A stretch of DNA of 61,393 bases from Nemertoderma westbladi (lineage: Eukaryota > Animalia > Xenacoelomorpha), in assembly GCA_032718475.1 (NCBI GenBank), contig JAUCBJ010000106.1, forward strand, positions 1 through 61,393, written 5' to 3'. Below the pieces are notes generated by a model. That model was not told where the DNA came from. It did no database searches and saw nothing but the letters and a program-made list of their open reading frames with translations. Positions 35,826 through 54,711 of the stretch are shown here, piece after piece. Within the stretch, counting starts at the first letter, position 1. Each line of letters begins with the position of its first letter. Position numbers and translations under genes: made by a program.

Positions 35826-36920
35826 GGGGCGAGCCATGAAGTGAGTGATAGCATCGAAGTAAGGTTATGACGCGACAACTAAAAAAGGTAAATAAACACA
35901 GACTTATGGGGGCGAGCCATGAAGTGTGTGATTGGCGTTTGACCTTGAACCGCAATAGGTAAAACCCAATATAGTAAGTGGGTTGCAGACGTTTGTTATA
36001 AAACATGATTTCGTGATTTGATGAAAAAATGGGGTGAGCCATGAAGCGAGTGAAGCCTTAGCATATGGGTTAAGGTTATAGTATTTATAATATTATTTTA
36101 ATTTGATTATTCTACCTATGGGGCGAGCCATGAAGTGAGTGATAGCATCGAAGTAAGGTTATTGTATTCAACTAACGACAGCCACCAATATTACAATTCT
36201 ATAGTTATTGGTAAGCAACTAGTTGTGGGGCGAGCCGCGAAGTGAGTATAAAGTTATAGTATTTATAATATTAATTTTTAATATGATTATTCTACTTATA
36301 TGTGGAGGGGCGAGCCATGAAGTGTGTGAAAGCATATAGGTGCAATCGGAGAGTTGTCTAATCGCCGTCCGGCGCCGACATAAATTTTAATTGCTAATAA
36401 CTCGGTTACACGGTGATTTGATGACAAAATAGGGCGAGCCATGAAGCGAGCGAAGCCTTAGAATATGGGTATCATTAACGAGTTGTGGGGGGAGGGCGAG
36501 TTTGATCGATTATTCTTGGTGGGCATACATACATTGATTGAGTACCGCACCCGTGTATAGAGAACTATCTGGACTTCCAGGGGTACGCATCTGGCTATAG
36601 TACGCTAACCTAATGTCCTGAGCCTTCACGCAGCACGAAGTAAGCAAAGCCTTTAGCATGTATAGGAACTATTGTTGAATTTGTTGATTATTATTGTTAT
36701 TATAATAATTTCCGAAATTATTACTTACATTAATTTTCGGTAGGTGGTGGTATATAGGCGCTATCGGTGAGTTGTCTTATCACCGTCCGGCGCCAACATA
36801 AGTTTTAATTGCTAATAACTCTGTTATACAGTGATTTGATGAAAAAATAGGACGAGCCATGAATCGAACGAAGCCTTAGAATATGGGTACCCGCGCGGCG
36901 CGGAGTGAGCAAAGCCTTTA
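35737..36920 (+). repeat. Subterminal array of GGGCGAGCCATGAAG(T/C)G motifs (~9 copies)
   Basis: Copies near 35737, 35826, 35909, 36031, 36120, 36227, 36307, 36432 and 36850, embedded in longer direct repeats. Confidence 0.85.
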
Positions 36921-37002
36921 GCGTGTGGGTACTATTGTTGAATTTTGGTAATTATTTATTGTTATTATATTAATTGTTGAAATTAAATTACATTAACTTA
37001 CA

Positions 37003-37401
37003 TTAATGTTGGGTGGGAGGCTGCGTTCTTGTTTGCCCCATCATTCTTGGGGGGCAGGCGCAAGTCGGGCGGACTACCCCACCAACAATTCTACCCGGCT
37101 CCACAGGGACTACCCCTTCTTGCGGCGGATCCGGGGGGAACCACGGCGATAAGCCACGACCTCTCCCTCGGGGCCGCTTATTCGGAAATACCATGGCAAT
37201 AGGCCTAAGAGGCCTACCAATCCCCGGATAAAAATTGATAGGCCTATACAACGCTGCCATCGGTGTATTAGGCCTTCTAAGGGGTTCAATGGTACCCCCG
37301 CGACTCCCCCCGCCGTAAGTTTGGGGCACCCTGCCAGAAACGGGTATTTGTTGGGTGGGGTCTTCTGCTTCAGGATTCTTGAGTTCGCCGCTTTCAGCCA
37401 T
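37003..37401 (-). CDS. Polinton hypothetical Pro/Gly/Arg-rich protein
   Basis: GC-rich 132-codon ORF between AT-rich spacers, on the same strand as the structural module. Confidence 0.5.
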   Translation of the reverse strand: MAESGELKNPEAEDPTQQIPVSGRVPQTYGGGSRGGTIEPLRRPNTPMAALYRPINFYPGIGRPLRPIAMVFPNKRPRGRGRGLSPWFPPDPPQEGVVPVEPGRIVGGVVRPTCACPPRMMGQTRTQPPTQH

Positions 37402-38008
37402 ATTGATAATATTATATATTATATAATAATATTTATTAATAATAATTTAAAATTAAAATAATAAAGTGTTGTCAATATCGCCATTCCCAATGTTATATAG
37501 CAAACTACAACAGAACTAACTACTTTGGTAAGGCTAATTATCTATGCTTCGTATATGGCTTATTTTCTTTTGCGAAACCGGCCACATATGTGAGTAAATT
37601 GAACCCAGAGCTTTGATTGTCGTTAGAGCGTTTAATTATTGTCTAATGAGCGTAGCGTGGATAGAGATTCTGGCCTTTGTGTTAACCACATAGGTTGGGC
37701 GGCAGATGCTTGGTATATAACGGAAAGAGTTGGGTCCCAATGTGCTCTATGTCCAATTATTATTCCAGTTTTACCAGCCGCCCACACGTTAACGAGACCC
37801 CTGCAAGGTTTCTGCGATTGACGATGAAAATTAAAAACGAATAGTGCTGCGTGAAGACCCCAACCCACGTCACTTACCGTGTCCCATATATTTATTAAAA
37901 ATATTGCTATTACTATATACCCAAGAAATAAATATTTATTATTAATATTAACGCTAATAATATGTTCACACACCGCAATTGAATATACCCATAACCGAAA
38001 TAAATAAA

Positions 38009-38449
38009 TTATTTTATTAATGAAAGTGTCCACAGTAATAACAATAAATCATTGTAACGCAAATTAGAGGTGAATATATTCATTGCTCCGGGATTTTTCG
38101 GCACCTCGGTTAAATAATACAGACAAAATAGACCACACTGAGTCGATTGTGGCGCTTGAAATATTTTACGATTCCAAGTATGCCTTTGGGTATATTTATG
38201 CAGCCAATATGATATTTTTGGCGGCGGGGCTTTACCAAACGAATCTAAATAATAAGCAATTCTGTTAACCATGCGTACGCAAGACCAGTGTTGTCCTGGT
38301 AGGCCTATACGTTGATTATTAATAATAAATGAATAATTTTGTTTCTGCTTATTTTTTTTTGTGTGTATTAGGAGTAATTGGTCGATTGCGTAAACACCGA
38401 TGTATTCGGGCCCCACCGGGAATTTCGCTAATTGTATAGAGTCCAACAT
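38009..38449 (-). CDS. Adenain-like cysteine maturation protease
   Basis: GQHW, YYLDSFG and QAPQSTQCGLFC catalytic His/Asp/Gln/Cys motifs. Confidence 0.93.
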   Translation of the reverse strand: MLDSIQLAKFPVGPEYIGVYAIDQLLLIHTKKNKQKQNYSFIINNQRIGLPGQHWSCVRMVNRIAYYLDSFGKAPPPKISYWLHKYTQRHTWNRKIFQAPQSTQCGLFCLYYLTEVPKNPGAMNIFTSNLRYNDLLLLLWTLSLIK

Positions 38450-38543
38450 CTTAGCGTACGCGTATCATTAAAAGTTTAAGATAATTTTTCTAATTCCGCA
38501 GGCGGCGTGGCTTCGCTTACTTTGTACTATGCGAGATCTTTAT

Positions 38544-39794
38544 TTATTCGGTTATTATTTCCTTGGCTTCTGAAATAGATAGAAGAGCGTCATAGCTTGC
38601 CATTAATATAACGTTAATAGTGTTAACTAGCGCATTACTAAATTTCAGAATCAAATGCCCGCTTGTATGTATACTAGGTTGAATCTCATGGCTTTGATCG
38701 CCTCCGGCGGTAAGATCAAATACGATCAAAGGAAATTGGGTACGAAACCGTTCTGGTGTTAGCGAGCAAAATACGCCGCTCAAGCTCTTGAACACGTTCA
38801 TTAAACTTTCGAATTCCAGCATAAAATTGTTTTCTGGAAAGTTAGGGCGATATGGATACCCGTGTATAATACGGGAGTCGATGTTTAGTTCGGCATAATT
38901 TAAACCGAAATGGTTAAAATGTAGCGGATTACTGCTTAATTCCCCGTTGAAGCTGGCGTTGGTAAGCATTCCAATCAAAATATACTTAGGTAATTTCCCT
39001 TGGATTATGTTCGATTCTGTATAACTGGACTGCCCACCACCAATAGTGAAGGTTTTCACTTCTTGTTTTAACAAGTTATAAATAAAGTCATTTTTTTGTG
39101 ACCCCAACAAATGCGCGCGCATAACCTCAGCATCAATCCTGTGGCGTTTTATTTTTAAATTAATATTCATGATTTCAACTCTTGGGTTTACCAATCCTGC
39201 GGGGGGTTCAACTTTCAAAAAAAAATTATTCGATACTCGGTCTATACGAAGTCGAATGTTAATTCCTGGCGGCAGTAATTTGTCCTGGCTTGTTAGGTCT
39301 AAAAAAATTGGGGCCACAACGAATTTAACATAATTCCCACGAACGTCATTCTCAGTAGCGACAGGTACCCCACCTAGATTATTATCTGTATCTTCATATC
39401 CGCCAGCTCTTAAGATACTGCGTTTTTCATTAGCATCTGTCAACAGTAATGTCTGAAACGTAGACTTATAGGCGTAGAACCCATTCGAGGTTTCAACTAG
39501 CTTTTCATTTAGGTATAACAAACAATTTTCAAATAGTGACCCACCGGGGTAATTGAGATGGTGGAGGGTTGTATCGTCGTTAGCCCTATTACCATCCCAT
39601 GTAATTTTATATTTAATGTGAAATTTCGAATTCTTTAAATCAGTATATAGAACATTTGACTGGGGTATAAAGAACTCTATTTGCCTGGCATTCGCATCAA
39701 GAGTAGAAATCGGGTAGATATCCAAAAAATGTGAAGATGTATATTCTCGCTGATTTGTTTTACTCGAGAATAATGATAATTCTAATTTACTCAT
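38544..39794 (-). CDS. Double jelly-roll major capsid protein
   Basis: MSKLELSLF start (ATG 39794), QDKLLPPGINIRLRI, FNGELSSNPLHFNHF, IVFDLT and GHLILKF, as in Polinton MCPs; 416 aa, open. Confidence 0.9.
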   Translation of the reverse strand: MSKLELSLFSSKTNQREYTSSHFLDIYPISTLDANARQIEFFIPQSNVLYTDLKNSKFHIKYKITWDGNRANDDTTLHHLNYPGGSLFENCLLYLNEKLVETSNGFYAYKSTFQTLLLTDANEKRSILRAGGYEDTDNNLGGVPVATENDVRGNYVKFVVAPIFLDLTSQDKLLPPGINIRLRIDRVSNNFFLKVEPPAGLVNPRVEIMNINLKIKRHRIDAEVMRAHLLGSQKNDFIYNLLKQEVKTFTIGGGQSSYTESNIIQGKLPKYILIGMLTNASFNGELSSNPLHFNHFGLNYAELNIDSRIIHGYPYRPNFPENNFMLEFESLMNVFKSLSGVFCSLTPERFRTQFPLIVFDLTAGGDQSHEIQPSIHTSGHLILKFSNALVNTINVILMASYDALLSISEAKEIITE

Positions 39795-39969
39795 TGTTAA
39801 GTTACATAAAAATGTCGCGAAATTTATTATTTCGCTTTTTACGTTTGCGCCCAACGTTCATACCCACACTTGGGTGTCGCCGTTTCCCGCTCCTCTTTTT
39901 TTTACTTTTCGGGTTTGTAAATTCATTGTATACCCGTTGGGCGATTTGGCGTGTCTTTGGATGAAGTTC

Positions 39970-40329
39970 TTACCGCGCGGCCACTTTATTTATCAAATCA
40001 TCTGCTTTACTGCGTAAAATACGTTTTCCTTCCGGTATTATGTATTTCCGCGCTACTCTTGCTGCTTTGGGGAGGGCTTTAGTTAGCACCTTTCTCCCTA
40101 ACTTGCGCGCTAATATACCGAGGCCAGTTGTTAATATTCCGCGCCCGCGCTGACGATTTTGGGTGTATCGCCGCCCGAATTTATTATTCTTATTATTCCA
40201 TATACCAGTAGATGGGCCAAACCCTGGGAGAATGCTTCCACCCTTAAAAACGGGTATATCACTATAATTCCCACTTCCCAGTTGGATTTGTGGGGCGCTA
40301 TATAATTTAAACAAATTAGAATCTGACAT
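39970..40329 (-). CDS. Small basic core/membrane-active protein with adenain-type sites
   Basis: QLGSG, FKGG and QRGRG followed by an amphipathic basic helix GLGILARKLGRKVLTKALPK; located between the pentons and MCP. Confidence 0.7.
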   Translation of the reverse strand: MSDSNLFKLYSAPQIQLGSGNYSDIPVFKGGSILPGFGPSTGIWNNKNNKFGRRYTQNRQRGRGILTTGLGILARKLGRKVLTKALPKAARVARKYIIPEGKRILRSKADDLINKVAAR

Positions 40330-40451
40330 TATTATTATGAGTATTTATTATAACGTATAATAATAATTCTTTACTACATACGTATATGTGTAATCAACAA
40401 ATAATATATGTACCACATAATAATACAATATAATTAATAAATATATACACA

Positions 40452-41036
40452 TTAATTTGATGACAACCATTTCCCATAACCAACTGCGAGTTTCATAGAA
40501 CAGTAATTAAAACAAGAATCTTTATCAGAATGGTAGGCACAATTTGTTATTCCCGAATAATCATGGAAAAGACATTTGGTATCATAATCAACATATTTTT
40601 CGTTTATGCCGTACGTTTCTAGAAGTGTTCTATTCACATTAAATTCATTTTTTAAAATAAATAATTTCGGTATTCCGCGTATTAATATTTGAAACCCCAA
40701 CCGTTTTTTTTCTTGTAACCATTCCTGTATGTACATTTTAAATGCGCTTTGGTCCATAAATCCGTAGCCAAAATTAATGTGATGCGTAATATTGGCGAGT
40801 TGTGTGTATTCGCTTAAACTTAAAATTTTTGCGGGTGGACCATTAATAAACCATACGTTTTCTAATGATTTGATGGTAGTATTATAAGCCGCAAACTCTT
40901 TAAAATAAATGGTTGCAACGGGGTGTTGGCCGATCTGCGGATGATGCGTATAATATTGGAAATCTACTATTATTCCTGGGGTTTCCAGCATCGGGTAATA
41001 ATCACGCCCACGGCTGCGACTTAGAAATTTATCCAT
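40452..41036 (-). CDS. Putative degenerate DEDD/RNase H-fold protein with C-terminal CxxH...C motif
   Basis: IIVDFQ, FKEFA, IRGxxK and CAYH(x9)CS pattern. The fold assignment is inference. Confidence 0.45.
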   Translation of the reverse strand: MDKFLSRSRGRDYYPMLETPGIIVDFQYYTHHPQIGQHPVATIYFKEFAAYNTTIKSLENVWFINGPPAKILSLSEYTQLANITHHINFGYGFMDQSAFKMYIQEWLQEKKRLGFQILIRGIPKLFILKNEFNVNRTLLETYGINEKYVDYDTKCLFHDYSGITNCAYHSDKDSCFNYCSMKLAVGYGKWLSSN

Positions 41037-41110
41037 ATAGTCGCTATTACTTCAGATAATCAGATAAGAATAAATAATAAATAATTTACATCGATTAAAT
41101 TGTGACTATC

Positions 41111-41914
41111 TCAATAAATTTGTATAAAATGAAGCGTCAATATTGAATTTCCATAATGAAAGCGCAACAAATTTCCCGAATCCCCAATCAACCGAACTCG
41201 TATATAACGTAAATTAGATGTTGAATTAACTTTTTTATAGTAGACTTCCTCAACTTCTCGACTAATAATTTGCCCATATTCCCCTTCTATGGGTATGCCA
41301 CGCAACAGAGGGTATTCGCTATTGTCTACAAATTGAGGTTCGACGCAATTGATATGTATATTTATGTTGGGTTCCAGTATTTCGACAGCATTAGGATGCT
41401 TATGGCAGTTGTACTTATTATTTCGTGAATCAATCCTTAGCAAGTGATAATCCCCTACAGCATTTTGTACACACATAAAACCTTTGCCGTCAACCTCGTG
41501 TTCTGTTAATCCTAGGTAACCACCCAAACGTTTACTGACAAATATCGACAACTGTTTACCTTTAAAATGTATGGTTATATTACCGGAGCGTGCTCTATTA
41601 TCAATTATATTAATTTGGCCTTTAATAAGGCTTTTGTTGAAGTACTCAATGATCCTTTCCAATGATAGGAAAGATCCTTCGGGGAGAGTAACATCTCTTG
41701 TAAACATTTTTTTATTTTTTATGGCCTTTATATAAATGTCGCTATTGTCATACCTGATACTAGATACGTACGTTATACCGGTTAAACCTACTAACCACTG
41801 CCCTCTAGCGAAAGGTAAAGGAATTTGCAAATTTGTTTGGAAATCGCTGGGGCTATTACGCGGGAATTCTATGGGGTTTGCGTTTGAGGGTAGTACAACG
41901 TAATAACTGTTCAT
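41111..41914 (-). CDS. Minor capsid protein (penton), copy 2
   Basis: YYVVLPSNA..FPRNSPSDF..W.VGL..I.Y N-terminus; PLLRGIP..Y..V..G.LLRF..G..ILTLHF C-terminus. Confidence 0.9.
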   Translation of the reverse strand: MNSYYVVLPSNANPIEFPRNSPSDFQTNLQIPLPFARGQWLVGLTGITYVSSIRYDNSDIYIKAIKNKKMFTRDVTLPEGSFLSLERIIEYFNKSLIKGQINIIDNRARSGNITIHFKGKQLSIFVSKRLGGYLGLTEHEVDGKGFMCVQNAVGDYHLLRIDSRNNKYNCHKHPNAVEILEPNINIHINCVEPQFVDNSEYPLLRGIPIEGEYGQIISREVEEVYYKKVNSTSNLRYIRVRLIGDSGNLLRFHYGNSILTLHFIQIY

Positions 41915-42795
41915 TCTTGTAGTTTTTGTCGCCGTTGTTGTTTTTTGAGTTCTAGAACTAAAATTGTTTTACCTCCATGAAAGACTATATGCTTTCCTTT
42001 ATGGTCGCGAAGCGTTATACTAATTGTATCGAGCACTTTTTTATTTTTTAATTGTTTGTAATGTGTGTTTTTGAATTCCTGGTTGATGAATGAGTATGGT
42101 TCCCATTTCAAGGGGATTATCCGCAAAAGAGGCGCCATCGAATGTCCTACGTGAGAAGATTCAATCATATCTGTATATATAAACATTGTGTGTCTATCCC
42201 TCGTTATATCGCAAGGTTCGGGGAATTCAACCCCATCCATTTTGTTTGTGTCTTTACAGCCTAAGTTCAATAAATCATCATCTCCGTTGTAGTGTATTGC
42301 CCAAAGCGCCCCAAGACCCATTAAATTATTTTTTAAACTCGATAACCCGAAAATATTTATTATATCTCCATAGAATTGGAAATAGCGACCTTTCTTACAA
42401 TGTAGATGAATTTTTGATGTATGTTTTTGGTAGTTAAACTTAACATCTTTGAAACCGTGGTGGGATATTGTGGGATTTTTCAAATAAACACTAATATGGT
42501 TTTAAATTGACTCAATAGAAGCATATAGCCCAAGATTAAAATCGATTTCTATAAGATTGTATGGAGCTATATGAAATTCCAAATCCTCATCATACATATA
42601 TTCCCCAATTCTAATTCCGGATCTTTGTTCAATATTTCTATAGGTCGACACATACTGTATTTCCTTTAGACCCACGACCCAATCTGTGCTGACGGGGATA
42701 GGTTTGGACAACTCAATCGTGAAATCGCTGGGAGTGTTATCGGGATATTTATCTAGACTGGCGTCGGAAGTCAACGTTAAATGTAAGTAATCCAT
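41911..42795 (-). pseudogene. Minor capsid protein (penton), copy 1, one in-frame TAA
   Basis: LTLTSDAS..YPDNTPSDF..WVVGLKEIQY (42502-42795) and FIYTDMIE..VG...APLLRII (41911-42483) share a frame; TAA at 42502-42504. Confidence 0.88.
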
Positions 42796-42809
42796 AATAA
42801 TATAATTAA

Positions 42810-43895
42810 TTATTGTACGTGATCAACCCACCGATGTGTCGCAAAACCAACAAATTTAACCAAATATTGCTTTTTGCCGCTTTTATTTACTTTTTCTTTA
42901 ATTATTTTTTCAATTGGTAGGAATTTAAATGGTTCTATTACCTTTTGGATTTCATGTCGATAAAATGTCCCCTTTATAACGCGCCCATTCGAGTCCACAA
43001 CTTCGTACATAGGGTACAGCTCTCGATCCAATCTTATTCTGTAAATTTCAAAAATTTCTACTGTATAATTAGGTGTATAACCTTTGTCAAATGGCTTTCT
43101 AGCTAAACTCAGCCGCACCTTATCACCAACCTTGAAATGAACTCGACGCTGCGCGCGGCGTTTTCTTTTATTGGGATGACCCACACTCCCATATAGTTTT
43201 AAAAATAGGTCAGTTTCATTCTTTTTATTGACAGAGTTTGGCGCCATACCAATGGTTCTATGTATTGAATTATTATATGCAACCAATATTTTTGGCAATA
43301 TACTCATCCATTCTCTATTCTGTCTCCTCGTGAAAATTCTGTACATGCGAGATTTGAGGGTGCGATTCAGCCTTTCACAGATACTAGCTTTAAATTGGCT
43401 AACTAATGTATAAAAATGAACATTATTGTTCTGTAAGAAATCTTTCACCAATTTATTAACAAACTCAGTTCCTTGATCAACTGCTAGCCGTTTAGGTTTC
43501 CTTTCTTCGAATATCGTGGCTAGGGCCCTTTTAATTTCGACCCCTGTTTTACGTTTTAGACCCAACGCCCATGCCTTCCGACTAAAACACTCAATACAAG
43601 TAAGTATGTAACCGTAGCCATTATTCTCACCCCTAAAAGGTTGCATATCACACAAATCCGCTTGGTATAGATCGCCAATACCACCCGTGAAGATTTTTGA
43701 TGTCGGGTAATGGCGCCTAGCCGGCGTGTGTAGGGAATACGTTCGTTGGGAGCTCAACCATTCCTTTGCGCGATTTCTCGTAACTTTAGTGGCTTTCGCT
43801 AGTTTGGTTACGCTCGCGAAACCGGCAGCATTTGAAACATCGTAATATATTCTTCCCAGTCGTTTGTTTGTTCGATTTTCTACGGTTCTCCCCAT
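42810..43895 (-). CDS. int: Retroviral-type (RVE) integrase with C-terminal chromodomain
   Basis: YQADL, LAVDQGTEF and ERLNRTLK form the DDE triad; YNNSIHRTIGMAP; KQYLVKFVGF chromo-like tail. Confidence 0.96.
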   Translation of the reverse strand: MGRTVENRTNKRLGRIYYDVSNAAGFASVTKLAKATKVTRNRAKEWLSSQRTYSLHTPARRHYPTSKIFTGGIGDLYQADLCDMQPFRGENNGYGYILTCIECFSRKAWALGLKRKTGVEIKRALATIFEERKPKRLAVDQGTEFVNKLVKDFLQNNNVHFYTLVSQFKASICERLNRTLKSRMYRIFTRRQNREWMSILPKILVAYNNSIHRTIGMAPNSVNKKNETDLFLKLYGSVGHPNKRKRRAQRRVHFKVGDKVRLSLARKPFDKGYTPNYTVEIFEIYRIRLDRELYPMYEVVDSNGRVIKGTFYRHEIQKVIEPFKFLPIEKIIKEKVNKSGKKQYLVKFVGFATHRWVDHVQ

Positions 43896-44090
43896 CGGTT
43901 GTGTCGTGTCGTGGTAGAAAACACTTACAATGACAGTTAATACTTAATATGAAACGTTCAAAAAACATGCTACTATTTTAATGTTGTCCTACGTTTTGTT
44001 TCCGCACGTCGATTTATTGTAGTCCTACGTATTGTTTCCACGCGTCGACGCGTTTTGCATTGGAGGGGGTCACACGGACCCTTTGCCGTT

Positions 44091-44471
44091 TCAACCAACC
44101 GCGACCAATCGTTTTGGTATCCTTAATCGTTTTAATAACCCCAAAAATGTTGTTTGTCCTGGAATTATTTCGGTGTTGTTCTTATTTTTTTTTGTAGTCA
44201 GCAATTCAATCAAATGATCAATATTCGCTCCGGGTATAAGTTTATTTTCTATATAGAGTTTATTATTATCACTCCACCGTACTCTGTCTCGCGAGAATCG
44301 CATCAAATAACTCAACAATCGTTTGGCTTTCTGGGATGAAATTGTCACACCATCTAGCGGTTGTATTATATTATTGCTTTTCTTATTATTATTATTATAA
44401 GTATCCGTTAATAAAGTAGAAACTAGATACAACTTCATAAAATTTCCAAGGCTAATCTCGTTATTTTTCAT
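44091..44471 (-). CDS. Conserved Polinton hypothetical protein
   Basis: KAKRLL..W...KLYI....IPGANIDHLI...PG..FL..L pattern, recalled from ORFs between ATPase and integrase in Polintons. Confidence 0.55.
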   Translation of the reverse strand: MKNNEISLGNFMKLYLVSTLLTDTYNNNNKKSNNIIQPLDGVTISSQKAKRLLSYLMRFSRDRVRWSDNNKLYIENKLIPGANIDHLIELLTTKKNKNNTEIIPGQTTFLGLLKRLRIPKRLVAVG

Positions 44472-44592
44472 CGTTATATATCATTATTAATATATTAATA
44501 CTATATACTAGAGTTCACGTTCATGGACCGATAATAACCTAATTTTGGTGAAAGTCTAAACAAGGTGTGAAAATGGTTTTCGCGTGGCGTCG

Positions 44593-45303
44593 CTACTGCG
44601 GTATAGACTGAGCCTCAGGGCGTTGGCGAGGTGTGTTAGAGTTCATGTTCGTGGGTTGATAAACAGTTTGCCCTAATGGGTTGAAAATATCACCCCTAAC
44701 TCTTATACTATCATCCGTTTTTTGATGAAAGTCTAAGAGAAGGTGTGTGAATGGTTTTTGTGTGGCGTCACTATATGCTTGAACAATAAAATTGCTATTT
44801 TTTGGGTACACTTGTCGCGCTATATAACTTATTTGACTTGCGTCGCGGGGATTTTTTGTGAAAATACAATATTGGGCATTTAGACTTCTAGTCCGTGTTT
44901 CCGCCCCTTTACTGAAGAAATTTTGTGTTATATAGATAATGAAACAGGAAGTATGATGGCAGGTTTTTGTGAAGCTTTCTGTCAAACTCTCGTCACTCTT
45001 ACTTTCGCTTAACAAGTCGTCTATAATAATTAGATCGTTTTCGCGGAAAATAGAATTAATTTTTTGCGGTAAACCTTTGAATAGATGTGTTATACCTGGG
45101 AATTCTGGTGGGGTGGCGCCATAAAAGAATAATACACGCTTCGGGGTTATATCAAAAACTAAATTTTTATTTTTTACAATTTTTGATACCAGCACTGTTT
45201 TTCCGGAAGAACTTGGACCCGCAATAATCATGGCCGAACCCATCTTGAAAGAGGCGTCGTATGATGTGATTGGTTCCTGCGATATCGTCGGCTCTCGGGA
45301 CAT
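44593..45303 (-). CDS. A32/FtsK-family packaging ATPase
   Basis: Walker A GPSSSGKT, Walker B LIIIDDL, ITQN and RSLNAQY..F.NPRD. Confidence 0.95.
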   Translation of the reverse strand: MSREPTISQEPITSYDASFKMGSAMIIAGPSSSGKTVLVSKIVKNKNLVFDITPKRVLFFYGATPPEFPGITHLFKGLPQKINSIFRENDLIIIDDLLSESKSDESLTESFTKTCHHTSCFIIYITQNFFSKGAETRTRSLNAQYCIFTKNPRDASQISYIARQVYPKNSNFIVQAYSDATQKPFTHLLLDFHQKTDDSIRVRGDIFNPLGQTVYQPTNMNSNTPRQRPEAQSIPQ

Positions 45304-45320
45304 TGTTGATAGGTAGCCAC

Positions 45321-45785
45321 TCAGTAGATGGGAAATCTAGAAACTTGACGGTTGACGCGTGTACCAGAGGTACTAGGTCTATACCCCCGGCGGGATTGGG
45401 CTAATTTTCTGCCTCTTACAGCCGTTATTATGGGTGATATTTTCTGATAAGCGTTAAGCCCACTCATTAAACCAGAGATTAGTAGATTTATAAATCCGCA
45501 CCTTTGCACCAATCGTTTACGATAAATTCGAATGGGATACTTGGCTGCTTTTGGCTTTTTAGCGATCTCGCGTATTGTTTTTTTATGGCGTTTTAACCTC
45601 ACGATTGTTTGCTCAGGAATTTTTACGTTACCATTTAATACATTTAGAATAATATTAATTAGAAAACTTATAAGTTCGTCTGTTCCACCGACGCGTAAGA
45701 AGGTTTTTCTACGGTTAAGGGAGGCGTTAGATAAGAACTTTAAATCCCCGTCAAATTGTTTAATTAAAGCTTTGAGTGATTTCAT
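45321..45785 (-). CDS. Basic pX-like core protein
   Basis: NVLNGNV...LKRHKK.IR.IA...LVQRCGFINLLISGL resembles the Polinton/adenovirus pX QxGG|F/IL hydrophobic tail. Confidence 0.7.
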   Translation of the reverse strand: MKSLKALIKQFDGDLKFLSNASLNRRKTFLRVGGTDELISFLINIILNVLNGNVKIPEQTIVRLKRHKKTIREIAKKPKAAKYPIRIYRKRLVQRCGFINLLISGLMSGLNAYQKISPIITAVRGRKLAQSRRGYRPSTSGTRVNRQVSRFPIY

Positions 45786-46220
45786 TACATATATTAATAA
45801 CTTATATAAACGAGAACAATAATTGTAAGTAATAAAACACCACCACCGTTATAAATAGTATCGATTATATGCGTGGGTGGGGTTTTTCACACGATAAAAC
45901 CGAGCAATTATAGAAACCGGCACTCTTTAAAACCTAACATCAATAATTAATAAAATACATTATATAACGCGAACAATGAATTAATTTTGACATACTGACT
46001 GACAGAAAGACCGACAAATAGAGAGATAGACTAGATTTATGTAAATATAAACCGACATCAGAAATGAAATTGACGCCCTCGACAACCTAAGACTACCGAT
46101 AAAACACGTTATATATAATGTGATAATGTGAATAATGTTAATATTCACGTTTATTTAAAAACCTAACGAGATCCCACCGGACAAACCTAAAACTGGCACC
46201 AGAAATGAAAAAATTAAATA

Positions 46221-46781
46221 TTAAATATTTCTACCTAAATGACTATCTAAATTACCAACAAAATTCAAAAACTTTGGAAAAAATACTCGAAATATCCTGG
46301 GTCTTGCCATACATACAACATTTCGTGTGTAAAAAACGCAAAATGTTATGATATTAGAACTAGTTTTACCCCGACGATAAAACTGCACAAGAATATTATT
46401 AAATATCTCCGGCTCATATTTCACCTCCACATTATAATAATTATCTAAAAAATGAAACCCGACCATTTTCATTAATTTGCTATAGTCTATGTCTAGATTG
46501 TTAATAATATAAGTTTGGCTATTGATTGAAATAAAAGTTAATTTATAATCAGTATGCTTATATATATACTTAATAATTTTTTTTATTTTAGGCGATTTAC
46601 CGAGTACAGTGACCTTACCGCTCGGGAAAAAGAGACACGTCCATCCACAAATTTTGGCGATATATTGAAAAGGCTTTAAGATGAGTTTTCCATTTCGAAT
46701 TCGTTTAGCCAGCACATCGAATGATATGCACCCATCAACCAACCTCAAACTTATATTACTGTTGACAACACTAAAAGACAT
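46221..46781 (-). CDS. TATA-binding protein (TBP)-like protein
   Basis: TCLFFPSGKVTVLG (cf. TBP TALIFSSGKMVCTG), KYEPEIFNNI (cf. SYEPELFPGL) and FCVFYTRNVVCMA (second repeat); 186 aa matches the TBP core size. Confidence 0.8.
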   Translation of the reverse strand: MSFSVVNSNISLRLVDGCISFDVLAKRIRNGKLILKPFQYIAKICGWTCLFFPSGKVTVLGKSPKIKKIIKYIYKHTDYKLTFISINSQTYIINNLDIDYSKLMKMVGFHFLDNYYNVEVKYEPEIFNNILVQFYRRGKTSSNIITFCVFYTRNVVCMARPRIFRVFFPKFLNFVGNLDSHLGRNI

Positions 46782-46790
46782 TGCAATCCG

Positions 46791-49700
46791 CTATTCTATA
46801 ATGGGCGGTATATAAAGCTTAGGGGCGGGCGCTTTACGATCCAAATGTGTTTTATAATGGCCGTAAGGTAGACTTTCATTAGTCGATGTGTAATATATTT
46901 TATCTTCCCAGTGTTAGCGATTTTTTTCTTTGTGAAACGGTGTATATTTTATGTAAATTAGATTGAAACCTTTGACTGTATTCGTAATGCTCGCTAACCT
47001 CGTTATATACTTTTAAATATGATTCGTGGGAGAGTTTCTTTTTTATAACCATTTTTCCTACGCCTTTAGCGGCACGTTTTGGAACTGACCCCCTACGAAA
47101 GCTATAACATTTTGGTCTGAGTAAAATTACCTGTTCATATGGGATAGACATCCCTTCATCCTTTAAATATCTATATTTCCCTTTCTGTTCTACTGTATAC
47201 AACGGATGCGTAATGGGATAATTTGAACAGTCTAAAACTTTTTTTGATTGTAACGCAGATAAAAATTGGTGTTGGGATAAACCAACACACTGTAAAAAAA
47301 AAGAATCCGTGTCCCCACCTAACAAAGTTATACTACAATTTAATTCGGCTTCCAGGGGCTTTAATTTCTCGCAGAAGAAACTGTAATAATCTAACTTCGA
47401 CAGGTCCAATACAGCTTGGCCTAAAAAAATAGGTTTATGCAAACAAACCGCAGTTTTAGATAGGACGTGACCTGATAATGAATCAGTGAACATAATTAAA
47501 TTTTCGTGGTTCGGCTTGGATAATAATAAGTCACATTTCTCAATTGAATTACATAAGCGAAATGAGACACAGTCCTGTATATTCTCCATGCTTTTCCCGA
47601 AAAGCGCGTTATTTGTTCCTTTGTGAAACTTATCATAAAAGTCATTGCTTGCTATTTTTCTTTGCTGGGTGTTATATTCAATAAAATCCTTAAAAATGTA
47701 ACCTTGCTTAAATCTAATAAGTTTATGAACTTTAATCAAGCGCATACCATGATGAATATAAAAGCGCAATAATTTTAGATGCACACCGTACTCATACTTA
47801 TCAAATTGGGTTAACATCAATTTTTTTGCTGGGCTATTGAAAATTTTATCGCCATTATAATGTCGCCAAAGACTTTTCATGTGTGGACTGAGATACCTAC
47901 TATCGAGTTTAACATGCTCCGGTGCAAATGGAAGCTCGGCTGTGGCATCATGAATAGTCATTGGGTATTCAAGGTCTACAATTGCGAAGTATCCATATAT
48001 TTCGTCAATTTCCAGACTCATGATATCGACACTATCAACATCCAACCATTCAAAGTCAGAATAAGGAAGTTTCTCCGACAAAGAACCGCTATATAAACTG
48101 TTGAAATCTAAATTATATAAATGAGCTTCGGGTTTATTAGTATATAGTATTATATATTATTATTAGTATATGTTTCTGTGCCTGGTATATTCGCATTTGC
48201 CATATGAAGGTTGGTGTAAGAAACTCCACCCCTAATGGAATTTTCGAATGTTAAATACATTTCATGGTCTGCAAGTAGACAAATATGTGACTTAGAAAAT
48301 CTCAAAGCCGCGTCCCAACTAACCCCCGCCATCGTGTAATAGTTCGAGACCTCAAGCGAATAATGTTTATTACAATATGCGCGAAAATTTTCAAAAATAT
48401 CGGCTAGCAGCAAAACGTCAAGATGTAAGTAAGCTTCCAAATAATCAAAAAGTGTCTCACATCGAAATTGTTCCCACGAAAGATGAGCAAATGTATATTC
48501 TTCAGGGCTAATAGATGATAATGTTAATTCATTGTAAAACTCTTTTGGATGCGGTAATTTAGTATCCTCCAATTTACTTAAGGAATCGACATATTCGTAA
48601 GGAAAAACTGACTTACGGCGTAAAATTTCGTTGGTAACATTTGGATATAATTTTCTCATTTGCTTCACAGTGTGCGGAATAACGGTTGTTAAATCTGACA
48701 CATCTTTTGTCAAAAACCCAGCCAAAGCAGAAAGGGAAAATCCCATAAACGCGAATGAATCAATAAACTGTATAGTTATTGATTTGCTGGTTGGGAGCCC
48801 TCTTACATCCTTTTCTGGAATAGCATAACCAAGCACGCTAAGTGCTTCTGACATTGGAATATCGATGCGGAGTGAGATATATCTTTCAGTATTTTTTGCA
48901 ATGGTGAATCATAAGAAAAAAAATTATGACAGATAACTGGGAATAGGTGACGTTTAACACTTAATTGTTTATTACAGGAAATACACGCCGCACCAATGAA
49001 AGCCCCGTTGTAATGGTTGTGATGCATCACACTTGGATTTATATCTTCCCGAAAAAATGAATTACAATTAAAGCAATTTGTGGTACGCATATAAGCTTGG
49101 TATTGTGTGTGATCCAGGTGTTTGGGGTGGTGTGTGTTAAAGGTAGACCATTCATAACACTTAAATAAATCAAAAACCAGACTATCAATAAAATTCTGTA
49201 CCGAGTTATTATCGATATTTTGTCTAAATGTAGACAAAAAATAATTTGGGGAGTTAATTAATTCGGTATTGGGGACAATCAAATATGAAACGGCCGACGG
49301 GAGATGTTCGGCTATATAATATTTTTTTACATTATTTGTTGGGGCTAGTACCACTTCGAAATCCATATATACTATGAAAGGTGTGCTCATAGACTTATAG
49401 TAATTAGTAAAACGTAAATTCAAATTCAGTTTAGATGGCATCTCCTCTATTTGGCGCCCGCCTTGCCAACACCCTAATCTATGGCGTTCTAACGCATTTG
49501 GACTGTAGAAACCGCGAATACACTGCTCACAACGATGACAATGATTGTTGCTATTGCCTTCCCCGCGACCATTAAATAATCTATTTAAGTTAGAAACCCC
49601 GACGATGTGATATGTTGAGGTTAAATTTTGACGCTCAATAAGCAATAAATTTAGCAATCTTTTACCTTCAGCTTTTTTAGCGCTCGGTTGTCGTAGAAAG

Positions 49701-50830
49701 GAAATTTTTTTGCTACTTCTATCAAAATACAATAAATTTATTAAATAATTTGGATTATTTTTTTCAAACTTTAGAATATTTAGTTTCCATGATAGGGTAG
49801 AATCTAATTCGCTTAAATTAAAAAACCCTGAATAATGATTATAAGAACTTTGGCGTGAAACATGGCGCAGTGTGTGATCATCCGATATATGTTTTGAAAA
49901 TTTTGCTGTCAGGACCGCCCACTTAAAACATTCACCTTCATTACACAGTACATTTATTATACAATGTTTATTTTTTAATTTTGTCGGGATTGATTGGTTG
50001 GCATCACCGCTATGTCCAAAACGATATACCGATCGCAAGTATGACGCAATAGTAAGTTTGATGCGCGATAGAGTTACAAGTTTCCAGCCGCTACCCCGCC
50101 TAATAAATTGCGATATTTTTTCACCGATATGGGAAATGACTGTGTAGTACCATTCGTCAAAATCCGAGCTATTTTCAATATAATTATCTGTACCAATCGA
50201 AGTAAAATGGAATTCTTCTTGTAGAATATAATTAGCATCATCACGTTCCATTATCACTGAAGCAATTACCCACACTTTATAAAACATATCATTAAAAGCC
50301 GATGCCGCCGTGTTAAAAGCGCGCGAAGCATATAACCCCATATAATTTAAATAATTCGGCACATCTGGATACATCTCATTAGATGACACATTATGGGTAT
50401 ATTCCTGAACGCGGGATTCGTGACATGTTTTTGAGAGATGAAAACCTTCGTTGGGTGTATCTGAGCTGTTTGTAATGCTTACAGGCGAACCAACGTTGAG
50501 ATCCGGTTGAAATGTCGGTTCTGATTGTTTTTGGTTATGTTTGCGTTTGTGGGAATTGTAATGGTTTTGATGGCAACTATGTTCGATATATGAATCGAAG
50601 TTTTCAAAATCATCAGAGCATGTCGGGCAGGATAGCGTGTAACCGCAGTAGGTGTAATTCGGGCGAGACAGCCCGCAACATCTATTACTGTGAAATATTG
50701 CTATTCTTTCAGAAGTAGTTCGGCAATTACAATTATCGCAAACATACCCATCGAAATGTGTGCGTAAATGCCGTAAATAATTTTTCTTAAGTATAGTACA
50801 ACCGCAAAAAACGCAATTAATCTCCATCAT
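46791..50830 (-). pseudogene. polB: Protein-primed family B DNA polymerase, three frameshifts
   Basis: N-terminal C2H2-like fingers, CFKWAVL, ExoI YMDFE, HHNHYNG..AACISCN, ExoII HNFFSYD, FIDS, IRGG, motif A DFNSLY, motif B KGTNNALFGK, motif C GDTDS, and WEDK..LPYGHY in a shifted frame. Breaks at ~48870, ~48150 and ~46910. Confidence 0.95.
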
Positions 50831-51123
50831 TATAATTATTATTATTACGATTATAATATATTTATTAACGTAGGTACAGAAAACATATTTACAATATGCC
50901 GATGAAAGAGATGCGGCAGATTTTATGTAGATAAATATATCCAATACCCAGTCAACCAGCCACCCACGCTAGAAACCGTTTAACCAACCAAAATTTACTG
51001 AACTGGCATTATCCTATTTATATGCTCTATTAACTATGTTGTATAATCGCGTGTAAGAGTATTGAAATAGTATTGACATGTGTCACCATCCGAGTTTGGT
51101 GTTATGCGTTTAATGTCACATAT

Positions 51124-51759
51124 TTAATATGTGCGGTGAAATGTCGAATTATTAATCTCTTCCCCATACGGCGTTAAATTCGTCGGTAAAAGCCCGAAAT
51201 AATCATCCGAATAAATATTAGAAACGTAGAGTATTGCCGCATTACATTGTTGGCATATAAGCTGGCATATTTTATCGCCCGATGTTACAACGTATTCCTT
51301 AGATGTGTTGTTAATCAATATAATTACAAGTTGATCTATATTACCGTGCGCAACACTGGAATCAACCGCATATTCTGCAACATCGATGCCAATTTTTGTC
51401 AAGCTAAAAGTCGGTGTAATTCTTCCAAAATAATTGGCGGGTAAATATATTTTAACACCCGTCTCAATTAACATCCGTGAGTGCGGCTCTATTGTTCTAT
51501 TCACGGCGCTATATATGTCAATCCCAGCTGGGCTATATGAACCGCATACAGGTGCCCGAGCTGCCGGGCTTAACAATTCAATTTTAATTGGAATAATTGA
51601 ATTAAGACCGCGGTATCTATTTTCAGCTTGTATTATTGGAAACATTTTTTTATTATGGCGTATTTTACCTAAAAAAATTCCTAAAAGAAAGGTAACAATG
51701 AATAATATATTTGAAAAAATGATCTTATCTATAGACTCAAGCTGCCCCAGTATTGTCAT
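51124..51759 (-). CDS. dUTPase-like protein, probably catalytically inactive, with N-terminal hydrophobic segment
   Basis: Motifs I (AGIDI) and IV (GDKICQLI) are kept; II (GRITPTFSL) and III (AVDSSVAHG) are degenerate; V is absent. IIFSNILFIVTFLLGIFLG is TM-like. Confidence 0.8.
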   Translation of the reverse strand: MTILGQLESIDKIIFSNILFIVTFLLGIFLGKIRHNKKMFPIIQAENRYRGLNSIIPIKIELLSPAARAPVCGSYSPAGIDIYSAVNRTIEPHSRMLIETGVKIYLPANYFGRITPTFSLTKIGIDVAEYAVDSSVAHGNIDQLVIILINNTSKEYVVTSGDKICQLICQQCNAAILYVSNIYSDDYFGLLPTNLTPYGEEINNSTFHRTY

Positions 51760-52345
51760 GTCGCTTAATCAATAATATTTTGACCAATGGGTATATTTAT
51801 AATGGGTGTGTCTTTAAAACGCCGTTCGCGCGCCGCAATCGTTCGTTTTTAGTAAATGTGATTACAGAAAAATATCTGTCGTGAGAGAAAGTTTGCGATC
51901 CCGACATTAAATTAAATTCGCTCATGCTTAAAATTATGAAACTTCTAAGAAGCTACACAGTTAATACAGTTGACGTCAATCAATTTAACCGTGAGTAATA
52001 TTCTGTTGAATTTTGAGGGTGTGTCTATAAAAATTTATATAGACCGCATTAATCGCCACCGCAAGCTGTTACCACTTACGTCAACCAATTTAAGCGTAAA
52101 TAAATATTTCCCTTGAAATTTATAGGAAGTTTTTCAAAAAAAATTCTCTCAGGACAATAGCGATTAATCCGGTTGAGTGGTTAAAATATACCCGTTTTCC
52201 CAATAGCCCATCATTATATTATAAATACGTCGTAAAATACTTTATTTCGTCATTCGGGTTAATTCATTCATTATCATATTTTTCGCACATTGTATAGCGC
52301 GATATTATTGTATTTTTACACTTAATTATTAATATTTCGCAAAAT

Positions 52346-53452
52346 TTGTTGATGGAATCTGTGAAACCATCACAACCAAAAATGATGTCATTAAGCGGTA
52401 GCTCTACTGATAGTGTGCCCGCCCCATACGTATCGGTGATTACAGGTAAGAGTGTGTGGGGCCTCGAGTGTTTGGGGGAAGGAATAGAAATAAAAGCATT
52501 TAACGGGAAATACGTTCGATTCAACCGTTGGGGTGATACCAAAGGACGCAACGTCGTGCAAGAATCGGTAAGTCTTACTTACCAGAACATAAGATTCCTG
52601 TTTGACTTCCTCAATTATAATAAAATAGCCGTTGAATATTACAAGGAATACACCCGAGGCAATTTGCTTATAACACCAATAAATCATGCGTACTTACGCA
52701 TTGGGAAAAACGGCACATCAATTTTTATCTCGCGAAAAATTCTAGATGTCTTACAAAGCATCTACGGCAAAGTCGTTCTTTCCCGTATTGAACCAAAAAA
52801 GAAGGAAATTCATGATGAGAATTTTATGGAGTTCGAAGATTGTGGGTACATTGGATATATCTACGACTTTGAAGGGCAACGATTTGTCGGCGTTTGGGAA
52901 GCGAATGATATAGGTAGACAGCGGAAGGGTGTTCTATATTACGATGGGTTGAATCTCAGAGCGGATGAATTCTGTTTGCTCGACTTTAACATAGATAAGA
53001 ATGTTAACGAGAATATCGATGAGGTTAGTATGAGGTACACATCAACCGTTAACAAAAACGGAATATATTTGTCCCACAACTTCGACACCAAGGTTATTTT
53101 CATCCCTCGAAACAACACAAATGTGAAGATAATTAAGCAATTACAGAAGTACGTGGACCACGATATTCCGTCTGGGTGTGAGTTTCTACCGATTAAAAAG
53201 TTAGTTGTTGAGGCTGCGATTGATGAATTAGTGGACGAGGAACTAATGAAAGTGGTAATGCCGAACAACGCTAGTCAGCTGAAGACGTCCGAAGCAGTAA
53301 AAGTCACTGCTAAGAAAATGGATGAGAAAAAAATCTGGTTGCCCGCGATTGCAGAAAATGAACGGGTAGACGGCGCTGAAAAAAAGAATGATTATAAGGA
53401 TATTGATACCCTCGTTGGGGGTGAGCGCTCAGATGAAGATGAAAACACCTAA
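52346..53452 (+). CDS. Protein with two putative PC4-like ssDNA-binding repeats
   Basis: IEIKAFNGKYVRF...SVSLTYQNIRFL and YIYDFEGQRFVGVWE...DGLNLRADEFCLL resemble PC4 F.G...V.IR...KGISL..EQW..L. Confidence 0.55.
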   Translation: MLMESVKPSQPKMMSLSGSSTDSVPAPYVSVITGKSVWGLECLGEGIEIKAFNGKYVRFNRWGDTKGRNVVQESVSLTYQNIRFLFDFLNYNKIAVEYYKEYTRGNLLITPINHAYLRIGKNGTSIFISRKILDVLQSIYGKVVLSRIEPKKKEIHDENFMEFEDCGYIGYIYDFEGQRFVGVWEANDIGRQRKGVLYYDGLNLRADEFCLLDFNIDKNVNENIDEVSMRYTSTVNKNGIYLSHNFDTKVIFIPRNNTNVKIIKQLQKYVDHDIPSGCEFLPIKKLVVEAAIDELVDEELMKVVMPNNASQLKTSEAVKVTAKKMDEKKIWLPAIAENERVDGAEKKNDYKDIDTLVGGERSDEDENT

Positions 53453-53456
53453 AGCC

Positions 53457-53642
53457 ATGAAAGAACAAGCGCTTAAGCGAAAAATTGATCTCATCGTGAA
53501 TAAAACACCTAGCTATGAGTATGAAGATATCAGCGACTTTGAAGAGGACATCGTCAATGATACGGATGATGGTGAAGACATTTTCAATGAAATCGAGACT
53601 AATGGGCAACCTCAAATAAAGAAGAATAAAAATTCAGTGTGA
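53457..53642 (+). CDS. Small acidic protein with basic ends
   Basis: MKEQALKRK...DISDFEEDIVNDTDDGED...KKNK; starts 4 nt after the upstream stop. Confidence 0.4.
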   Translation: MKEQALKRKIDLIVNKTPSYEYEDISDFEEDIVNDTDDGEDIFNEIETNGQPQIKKNKNSV

Positions 53643-53870
53643 ATCTTCGAGCGGTCGAAACTTTATTATATAAATAGACCATGTTCGTAGGCGGTGTCGC
53701 TGCAACGAGCCGGGCACGGTTAAATTATTATTATTATTATTATTTTGTGGTGGTAAATTATTTGTTGGTATAATGAATTATCGATTGAAATAAATATTAT
53801 ATAAATTTATTTATAGTATTATTTATTATTATACACATATTTATTTTATTTATTATACTATATATATATT

Positions 53871-54308
53871 ATGGATGAGGAGGTAGAAAATGAGATTGCC
53901 GTGGATGAGGTTGATAAGGAGGAGGAGGAGGAGGAAAATGAGATTGAAGCAGATGAAATTGATAAGGAGAATGAGATGATACTGGTGGCGATTTACGAGA
54001 GAGAAAAAGAAGAAGCGCGGTTGGAGAGATTGTTGAATCCGAGAAATGAGTGGGAAGAGATAGAGAAAAATTATTATTTGGAGGAAGAGGCAAAAAAGAA
54101 CAAGAGTGTGTGGGGAGAAGATTGGGAGTTGGAGATGGTGGCTGAGGGGGTTAGGAGAGCGAGGGAGGCTGAGAGGTGTGCGCGGGAGAAGGCAATGAAA
54201 GAAAGGATTGAGATGTTGATGGGAATGTTGGAGATGTTAGGCGGTGGCGGTGGTAATGGTAATAATGTGGAGGATGTAGATAGCGAGGATAGCGGGATAA
54301 ATGGGTGA
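53871..54308 (+). CDS. Glu-rich coiled-coil protein
   Basis: 145-codon purine-rich ORF after an AT-rich spacer, abutting the right TIR. Confidence 0.55.
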   Translation: MDEEVENEIAVDEVDKEEEEEENEIEADEIDKENEMILVAIYEREKEEARLERLLNPRNEWEEIEKNYYLEEEAKKNKSVWGEDWELEMVAEGVRRAREAERCAREKAMKERIEMLMGMLEMLGGGGGNGNNVEDVDSEDSGING

Positions 54309-54329
54309 GGTGGTGGAAGAAATTTTAAA

Positions 54330-54711
54330 ATAGTAATGGTGATGGATTTAAGTATAATAATCAAATTAAAAATAATATTATAAATACTATAACCTTACAC
54401 CCAATTCGCGGCTCGCCCCACAACTTGTTGCTTAGCGATATTGGGTTTTACCTATTGCGGTTCAAGGTCAAGCGCCAACCGGTAGACACGAATTAATTAA
54501 ATTACTTCCGTCTGTGGGCTGGCCTTATACCACATATGTTACATATACACAGTGGTGACATATGTTACACATGCACAATGGTAACCATAGTAAGTGGGTG
54601 GGGCAACAATAGTAATCATAGTAAGTAGGCGGGGCAAGAGCCGTTCGGCAAATTCTTTAACATGGTAGACTATGGCAGACGCTGTTTTATTTCAGCTGTT
54701 TACCTACTACT
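54330..54711 (-). repeat. Right TIR
   Basis: Inverted copy of 35434-35825. Confidence 0.95.

What the first reader, a model, noticed from the sequence alone, without database searches (positions are those of the whole stretch)
46221..46781. Polinton-encoded TATA-binding protein homologue
Seen: both TBP repeats are recognisable, the ORF is intact and it starts 10 nt after the repaired pPolB stop. TATA-like boxes precede several viral ORFs (e.g. ~45805, ~46812, ~51798, ~52218). Known: TBP homologues are typical of large nucleocytoviruses and are not Polinton core genes. Inference: with the PC4-like and acidic proteins this could form a small transcription-hijacking module, redirecting host Pol II to viral promoters or acting as a TBP decoy.
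Basis: partly seen in the sequence, partly recalled or inferred. Interest (0 to 1): 0.85.

Follow-up and report, generated by a model that had tools for sequence, protein, structure and literature searches.

The report
Polinton's divergent TATA-binding protein
A virus-like Polinton transposon carries an intact, strongly diverged relative of the cell's TATA-binding protein that likely helps steer host RNA polymerase II to the element's own genes; related Polintons carry such genes too, but this copy is an outlier and shows no matching promoter word.

Summary
Confirmed. The ORF (minus strand, 46781-46221, 186 aa) is intact and lies 9 nt past the pPolB C-terminal stop in a 19.3-kb Polinton bounded by TIRs and a 6-bp target duplication. 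It is a TBP-family protein: weak Pfam hit (E 0.0024), 47 bits on a profile of 120 relatives (1000 shuffles: 6 or less), and an alignment-based AlphaFold model (pLDDT 80) whose top PDB matches are TBPs. It is not unique: 3 of 82 related pPolB loci encode clear TBPs, and a profile search finds 346 proteins. It keeps three of four intercalating Phe, one of two Asn and both TFIIB-loop Glu, but lacks two near-invariant repeat-2 glycines and sits on a very long branch. Two related TBP-bearing Polintons have non-canonical upstream words (CATAAAC, TTAAGC); this element has none above chance. Best reading: an element-encoded promoter factor (about 50%). In print I found only a 'TBP' label in a MELD-virus figure legend (PMC8502044). 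This scan noted Polinton TBPs earlier in eight findings on other genomes.

The parts
46221..46781 (-). TBP-like gene, 186 aa, two TBP repeats, no N-terminal extension; basic (pI 9.8)
35434..54711 (.). Polinton/Maverick element, 19.3 kb, AGTAGT ends, flanked by a 6-bp target-site duplication (35428-35433 and 54712-54717)
35434..35825 (.). left terminal inverted repeat (about 390 bp, 97-98% complementary to the right arm)
54330..54711 (.). right terminal inverted repeat
46791..50830 (-). protein-primed DNA polymerase B gene, broken in this copy into three ORFs (50830-48803, 48854-48150, 48021-46900) plus a C-terminal piece in another frame ending at 46791
   Evidence: (PF03175)
44593..45303 (-). 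A32-like packaging ATPase
   Evidence: weak Pox_A32; E 3e-52 to the L003 ATPase
42810..43895 (-). rve integrase with C-terminal chromodomain
41111..42795 (-). three ORFs that match the same ORFs of related Polintons; likely minor capsid proteins (name from recalled Polinton layout, no family hit)
40452..41036 (-). Maelstrom-like protein (weak); a similar ORF lies near the TBP gene in L003 and, by position and size, L010
   Evidence: E 0.016; E 0.002
38544..39794 (-). likely major capsid protein, 416 aa (name from recalled layout; no Pfam hit)
   Evidence: (E 2e-47 to a 429-aa L010 ORF)
38009..38449 (-). adenain-like cysteine protease
   Evidence: (weak Peptidase_C5/Josephin)
51124..51759 (-). 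dUTPase
   Evidence: E 3e-16
52352..54308 (+). three plus-strand ORFs (366, 84, 145 aa; the last two acidic) of unknown family; PC4 likeness not supported
46804..46814 (-). TATA-like box about 30 nt upstream of the TBP-like ATG, inside the pPolB C-terminal coding frame; present, but such boxes are not above chance in this element

Best explanation
The ORF encodes a strongly diverged TBP-family protein of a Polinton, which likely binds A/T-rich DNA of the element's own promoters through its predicted saddle and likely recruits host TFIIB and RNA polymerase II. Shown: intact ORF, TBP homology, place inside a complete-ended Polinton, relatives in other Polintons. Predicted: two-repeat saddle fold. 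Inferred: (1) it is made with the polymerase block, since it follows pPolB on the same strand; (2) three kept Phe plus a Tyr at the fourth position still bend DNA; (3) the polar or basic changes on the DNA face (yeast V71, V122, N159, P191 positions) shift its preference away from the canonical TATA box; (4) the kept YEPE loop binds TFIIB; (5) its targets are the packaging and capsid genes, none of which has a canonical TATA box within 150 nt of its start. The target site in this element was not found.
For: Homology: Pfam TBP is the only family hit (E 0.0024); 29 of 30 Atlas hits are TBP clusters; of 1867 ORFs from 84 loci the only two hits at E<1e-4 are both TBPs above the Pfam cut-off; 47.4 bits on a profile of 120 relatives against at most 6.0 for 1000 shuffles; model pLDDT 80.5, pTM 0.70, top matches all TBP (Foldseek E 2e-6; Z 9-10, rmsd about 4 A over about 160 residues, next fold Z 6.8). 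Kept residues in 123 relatives: F116-equivalent 122, F190 122, F207 119, N69 115, E186 121, E188 121; the window protein keeps all six (yeast numbering from PMC12529657 Table 1). Constraint among copies: 14 of 28 listed differences in the ORF are synonymous against 20-27% expected (P 0.0006-0.02), none is a stop, while pPolB of this copy is broken. Related TBP-bearing Polintons have element-specific upstream words: L003 CATAAAC (7 of 13 genes within 100 nt, all 12 copies on the coding strand, 0 of 150 random-anchor sets as good) and L010 TTAAGC (7 of 14, 0 of 150); 13 long loci without a TBP gene gave only A/T-only words (5 of 13) or none. Precedent: herpesvirus ORF24/BcRF1/UL87 read a non-canonical TATT box (PMC12529657, passages).
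Against: No upstream word passes a family-wise test in this element (best TGAACG, 4 of 18 genes, 30 of 150 random sets as good; spaced patterns 22 and 20 of 40; one-mismatch words 28, 58, 3 and 30 of 60; position-fixed words 14, 83 and 27 of 200). The protein is an outlier: branch 3.18 against a median of 0.16; it lacks two repeat-2 glycines found in 116 and 118 of 120 relatives, has Asn at the P191 position (Pro in 113 of 123) and a 7-residue insertion in repeat 2. Single-sequence searches found nothing, the single-sequence model failed (pLDDT 36), the Atlas recognition value (1848) is below its 2300 mark, and the good model leans on an alignment of TBP-family relatives collected with a profile that included this ORF. 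In L003 all genes point one way and four CATAAAC copies overlap stop codons, so that word could be a poly(A) signal. No expression or binding data.
Confidence: 0.5

Rival explanations
1. TBP decoy: the protein keeps the TFIIB-binding loop and a basic surface but has lost useful promoter recognition, and would dampen host transcription by soaking up TFIIB or TBP regulators or by blocking host TATA boxes.
For: Both loop glutamates are kept while several DNA-face positions differ; basic protein, 27 K+R against 10 D+E; no shared promoter word in this element.
Against: Three DNA-intercalating Phe and N69 are near-invariant over 123 relatives, which a pure protein decoy would not need; two relatives have element-specific upstream words.
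Confidence: 0.2
2. A family gene under relaxed selection in this lineage: once a promoter factor, now drifting, with the element relying on host TBP.
For: Very long branch; loss of two near-invariant glycines and the P191-equivalent; no promoter word; canonical TATA-like boxes before 8 of 18 ORFs (chance level); one low-depth record shows gaps in the ORF.
Against: Frame is open, and at about 30% identity to its nearest relatives the key Phe, Asn and Glu are all kept; excess of synonymous differences among copies, no stop among 28 listed differences and no listed indel inside the ORF; no listed first- or second-position difference falls on the two glycine positions, so the change is not peculiar to this copy.
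Confidence: 0.15
3. Non-transcriptional DNA-bending protein: it would bind A/T-rich DNA at the termini or elsewhere to assist protein-primed replication, integration or packaging.
For: Gene directly follows pPolB here and lies close after it in L009 and L010; TBP folds also occur inside large viral proteins with other roles.
Against: The TFIIB-contacting glutamates are the best-kept surface residues (121 of 123); in L003 the gene sits in the ATPase/integrase block, not beside pPolB.
Confidence: 0.12
4. The likeness to TBP is chance or a product of the alignment given to AlphaFold.
For: Pfam score 18.1 is below the 22.9 cut-off; no single-sequence hits in three large searches.
Against: Independent Pfam, language-model and small-database hits all point to TBP; motifs fall in the right order and spacing; shuffles score 40 bits lower.
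Confidence: 0.03

Closest known systems
'TBP' gene label in MELD viruses with adintovirus-like PolB (Starrett et al. 2021, PMC8502044, Fig. 5 legend; preprint 10.1101/697771)
   Same: A TBP-like gene in a mid-size pPolB element of the Polinton type.
   Different: I saw only the legend and section 3.4; the figure is not held, so which genome carries the label is unknown to me. The text I saw gives no family survey, residue analysis, promoter or mechanism.
Cellular TBP family (PF00352; yeast 1ytb/1ngm, human 1cdw, archaeal 2z8u/1ais)
   Same: Two-repeat saddle (predicted), F116/F190/F207, N69 and the YEPE(L/I)F loop.
   Different: 16-21% identity; first Phe (F99) is Tyr here and Leu in 116 of 123 relatives; repeat-1 stirrup is shortened; N159 and P191 positions changed; no N-terminal extension; repeat-2 glycines lost in this member.
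Beta/gamma-herpesvirus late TBP mimics (KSHV ORF24, EBV BcRF1, HCMV UL87)
   Same: Viral TBP fold with a more polar DNA face in a nuclear virus that depends on host Pol II; the likely working model.
   Different: ORF24 is 752 aa with a Pol II-binding N-terminal domain, keeps all four Phe, lacks the TFIIB glutamates and works in a six-protein complex (PMC12529657, passages and section 15). This protein is a bare 186-aa core that keeps the glutamates; no partner complex is evident.
Nucleocytovirus TBP-like proteins (e.g. HaV01 TBP, EsV-1-53, asfarvirus B263R homologue)
   Same: Viral TBP fold; they are among the top BFVD matches.
   Different: 8-18% identity; most nucleocytoviruses encode their own RNA polymerase (recalled), this element has no ORF for one. 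Direction of any transfer was not tested.

Membership tests
TBP family (PF00352) | Score above Pfam gathering cut-off | tested here: not met
   18.1 bits against 22.9; its relatives L003, L009 and L010 pass (56.7, 49.2, 46.2 bits)
TBP family (PF00352) | Two-repeat saddle fold | tested here: met
   predicted with an alignment, pLDDT 80.5; PDB matches all TBP, Z 9-10 over about 160 residues; single-sequence model failed
Canonical TATA-binding TBP | Four intercalating Phe (yeast F99, F116, F190, F207) | tested here: not met
   three kept (F52, F127, F150); F99 position is Tyr40
Canonical TATA-binding TBP | Two minor-groove Asn (N69, N159) and P191 | tested here: not met
   N7 kept; N159 position Thr90, P191 position Asn128
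Canonical TATA-binding TBP | Acidic repeat-2 stirrup that contacts TFIIB | tested here: met
   E123 and E125 in YEPEIF; binding itself not tested
Canonical TATA-binding TBP | Binds and bends the TATA box | not testable with these tools
   needs a binding assay
Polinton-associated TBP-like group | Matches a profile of the group far above shuffles | tested here: met
   47.4 bits against at most 6.0; the 120 members were collected with a profile that held this ORF as one of three rows
Polinton-associated TBP-like group | Falls inside the group in a tree with cellular TBPs | tested here: inconclusive
   quick tree, long branch 3.18, only four haloarchaeal TBPs as outgroup, no eukaryotic or nucleocytovirus rows
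Herpesvirus vTBP (ORF24/BcRF1/UL87) | Large multidomain protein with Pol II-binding domain; lacks TFIIB glutamates | tested here: not met
   186-aa bare core that keeps the glutamates (PMC12529657)
Herpesvirus-type late switch | Shared non-canonical box upstream of structural genes | tested here: inconclusive
   no word passes in this element; passes in relatives L003 and L010; degenerate or distant sites could be missed
Polinton/Maverick | TIRs with AGT-repeat ends and 6-bp target-site duplication | tested here: met
Polinton/Maverick | pPolB, rve integrase, packaging ATPase, protease, capsid genes | tested here: met
   capsid names rest on similarity to ORFs of related loci and recalled layout

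The most novel reading that the evidence does not exclude
A branch of Polintons runs its own early-to-late transcription switch with one gene: a bare TBP that keeps the TFIIB handle, rewires its DNA face, and reads an element-specific promoter word (CATAAAC in L003, TTAAGC in L010, perhaps TGAACG here), so that TBP and promoter change together from element to element. It would be the smallest known viral take-over of Pol II initiation and the first regulatory logic for Polinton virion genes.
Probability: 0.4. Interest if true: 0.75.

Novelty: new variant of a known kind. Interest (0 to 1): 0.5.

Why it matters
How Polintons switch on their capsid and packaging genes is unknown (my knowledge; the Polinton papers I searched by term give no TBP or promoter model). 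An element-encoded TBP gives a concrete, testable handle: one small protein, candidate sites, and a predicted host partner (TFIIB). The family is also a natural set of TBP variants with altered DNA faces. The interest is tempered because viral TBP mimics are well known, a TBP label already exists for one such element, this scan has met the family several times, and this member lacks the promoter evidence seen in relatives.

Tried and rejected
Single-sequence searches with the ORF found nothing: PDB sequences, 5.8-billion set, 1.84-billion representatives, viral contigs, metagenome contigs, phages, NCBIfam. No host genome is held, so copy number, host TBP paralogues and full copies could not be read. 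No RNA holder was listed for the stretch; this says nothing about expression. Single-sequence AlphaFold failed. Promoter word in this element: exact, spaced, one-mismatch and position-fixed searches all failed their random-anchor controls; TGAACG (before the capsid, integrase and 126-aa ORFs at 52-66 nt, 5 of 6 copies on the strand of the nearest genes) is a post hoc lead only. PC4 likeness of the 366-aa ORF: no support. Origin of the gene: I could not fetch eukaryotic or nucleocytovirus TBP sequences (searches gave none; one search gave haloarchaeal ones), and profile scores against solved TBPs do not separate donors (archaeal 103.7 and 84.5, microsporidian 102.5, yeast 98.7, human 93.7 bits). 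The careful tree did not finish; only the quick tree was read, with 9 of 128 rows under 150 aa left out. No complex prediction was run, as only a prokaryotic stand-in for TFIIB was on offer.

Full report
Observation. The coordinates hold an intact 186-codon ORF on the minus strand, 46781-46221; the plus reading is closed. It lies in a 19.3-kb element (35434-54711) with roughly 390-bp terminal inverted repeats, AGTAGT ends and a 6-bp target-site duplication. The element encodes an rve integrase, dUTPase, pPolB and, more weakly, a packaging ATPase and protease; these and the likely capsid ORFs match ORFs in related loci. It is a Polinton. pPolB is broken in this copy into three ORFs plus a C-terminal piece in another frame, whose stop ends at 46791, 9 nt before the ATG in question. 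The host is likely an animal; that is inference from the element type and flanks, not a result.

Is it a TBP? Alone the sequence is hard to place. Pfam gives one hit, TBP, at E 0.0024 and 18.1 bits, under the 22.9 cut-off. phmmer finds nothing in the PDB, the 5.8-billion set or the 1.84-billion representatives and the single-sequence model fails. The ESM Atlas puts 29 of 30 hits in TBP clusters at 0.94, with a recognition value below its reliability mark. I then collected 82 loci with a related pPolB. Against 1867 six-frame ORFs of these and two bacterial loci, the ORF has two hits at E under 1e-4, in L010 and L003; both are TBPs above the Pfam cut-off with two repeats and both lie in Polinton gene sets. 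A profile of the three found 346 proteins, 120 listed, 119 of them with PF00352. A profile of those 120 scores the window ORF at 47.4 bits against at most 6.0 for 1000 shuffles, finds a third locus (L009), and picks out only this ORF among 570 ORFs of the window. With that alignment AlphaFold gives pLDDT 80.5 and pTM 0.70; the top PDB matches are all TBPs (Z 9-10, about 160 residues, rmsd about 4 A; next fold Z 6.8) and the top viral matches include nucleocytovirus TBPs. Caveat: the 120 were gathered with a profile containing this ORF, and the model leans on them.

How widespread? 3 of 82 pPolB loci carry the gene, but only 15 of 82 reach 8 kb, 2 of which have it. Of the 120 listed relatives, 18 have a contig of 5 kb or more and 5 share an exact longest-contig length with a listed pPolB hit. 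That is circumstantial; the contigs were not read, so the setting of most of the 120 is unknown.

Residues. Using yeast numbers (PMC12529657 Table 1) carried over through the profile-to-1ngm alignment, the 123 relatives keep F116 (122), F190 (122), F207 (119), N69 (115) and both loop glutamates (121 each; E186 and E188 by the printed chain, the paper writes E184 and E188), but have Leu for F99 (116) and polar or basic residues at V71 and V122. The window protein keeps the same six and has Tyr at the F99 position. It departs from its own group in repeat 2: Asn at P191 (Pro in 113 of 123), a 7-residue insertion, and no glycine at two positions that are Gly in 116 and 118 of 120. In the quick tree it is the longest branch (3.18, median 0.16), 30% identical at best.

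Is the gene maintained? Contigs of DNA runs from one coded organism cover the ORF with many variant records, including a subfamily about 83% identical. Of 28 listed differences in the ORF, 14 are synonymous against 20-27% expected (P 0.0006-0.02) and none is a stop; no indel is listed inside the ORF, although one low-depth record shows gaps. No RNA holder was listed.

Promoters. None of the capsid, protease, integrase or ATPase ORFs has one within 150 nt. Earlier scan notes suggested a shared non-standard box, so I tested that. In L003, CATAAAC precedes 7 of 13 genes within 100 nt, all 12 copies lie on the coding strand, and 0 of 150 random-anchor sets do as well; in L010, TTAAGC precedes 7 of 14 (0 of 150). 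With automatic gene calls both held, while 13 long loci without the gene gave A/T-only words (5 of 13) or nothing. CATAAAC may be a poly(A) signal, as four copies overlap stop codons and all L003 genes point one way. In the window's element nothing passed: exact words (30 and 9 of 150 at 100 nt), spaced patterns, one-mismatch words (best 3 of 60 for an A/T-rich word, one of four tests) and position-fixed words. TGAACG, 52-66 nt before the capsid, integrase and 126-aa ORFs, is a lead only.

Partners. The acidic ORFs have no convincing family hit. The three-gene module is unsupported.

Mechanism. The kept Phe residues argue for DNA binding, the kept acidic loop for TFIIB binding, and the changed DNA face for an altered site preference. 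With the promoter words in two relatives and the herpesvirus precedent (PMC12529657, passages and one section), the best reading is an element-encoded promoter factor (0.5). Decoy (0.2), relaxed selection in this lineage (0.15) and a non-transcriptional DNA-bending role (0.12) remain open, the more so because this member is degenerate in repeat 2 and has no detected site.

Literature. [quoted passage not shown] 5 legend of PMC8502044 and in its preprint (passages, section 3.4 and part 1 of the supplement seen; figure not held; supplement cut, slides unreadable). Term searches inside PMC11131425, PMC11161782, PMC10748475, PMC8097293, PMC12220804 and two 2026 preprints found no TBP or TATA-binding gene (passages only, supplements not searched). 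PMC10675990 mentions TATA-binding proteins in mirusvirus-like elements, not Polintons. Subscription papers, Repbase and bioRxiv supplements were not searchable and may hold annotations.

Verdict. A real, diverged TBP-family gene in a Polinton, part of a wider group; a new variant of viral TBP mimics, with function inferred and not shown. Interest 0.5.

Noticed in passing
L003 (1-18942) and L010 (1-16724): Two TBP-bearing Polintons each have their own non-canonical word upstream of about half their genes (CATAAAC; TTAAGC), passing a random-anchor control.
   Followed up: partly
L009:4454-5492 and L010:7095-8161: Between pPolB and the TBP gene both loci have two small ORFs (113/216 aa and 120/216 aa); by eye they recall PC4-type proteins (recalled motif), but Pfam gave no such hit.
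   Followed up: partly
window 45985-46200: A repeat that also occurs at about 13330-14250 and 26290-26360 sits inside the Polinton just downstream of the TBP-like gene.
   Followed up: no
window 40452-41036: Maelstrom-like ORF (weak Pfam hit); MAEL labels appear on several adintovirus maps in the PMC8502044 supplement.
   Followed up: partly
window 35800-36900: Degenerate copies of TIR-internal sequence repeat several times just inside the left terminus (families D12, D15, D19 and pairs I6, I21).
   Followed up: no
window 41911-42795: The 97-aa and 136-aa ORFs match the same single ORFs in related loci, so they may be one gene that is split in this copy.
   Followed up: no
window 17766-30054: A 1407-aa gag-like ORF and further ORFs suggest a BEL/Pao-type LTR retrotransposon (recalled likeness, not tested); a 300-nt direct repeat lies at 14247 and 24983.
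   Followed up: no
window 56831-58655 and 61014-61391: Fragments that look like non-LTR retrotransposon ORFs (by eye), and a 35-bp tandem array at about 60120-61190.
   Followed up: no
L003:11783-16583: This Polinton also carries KilA-N, parvovirus-type PLA2 and C2H2 zinc-finger genes.
   Followed up: no
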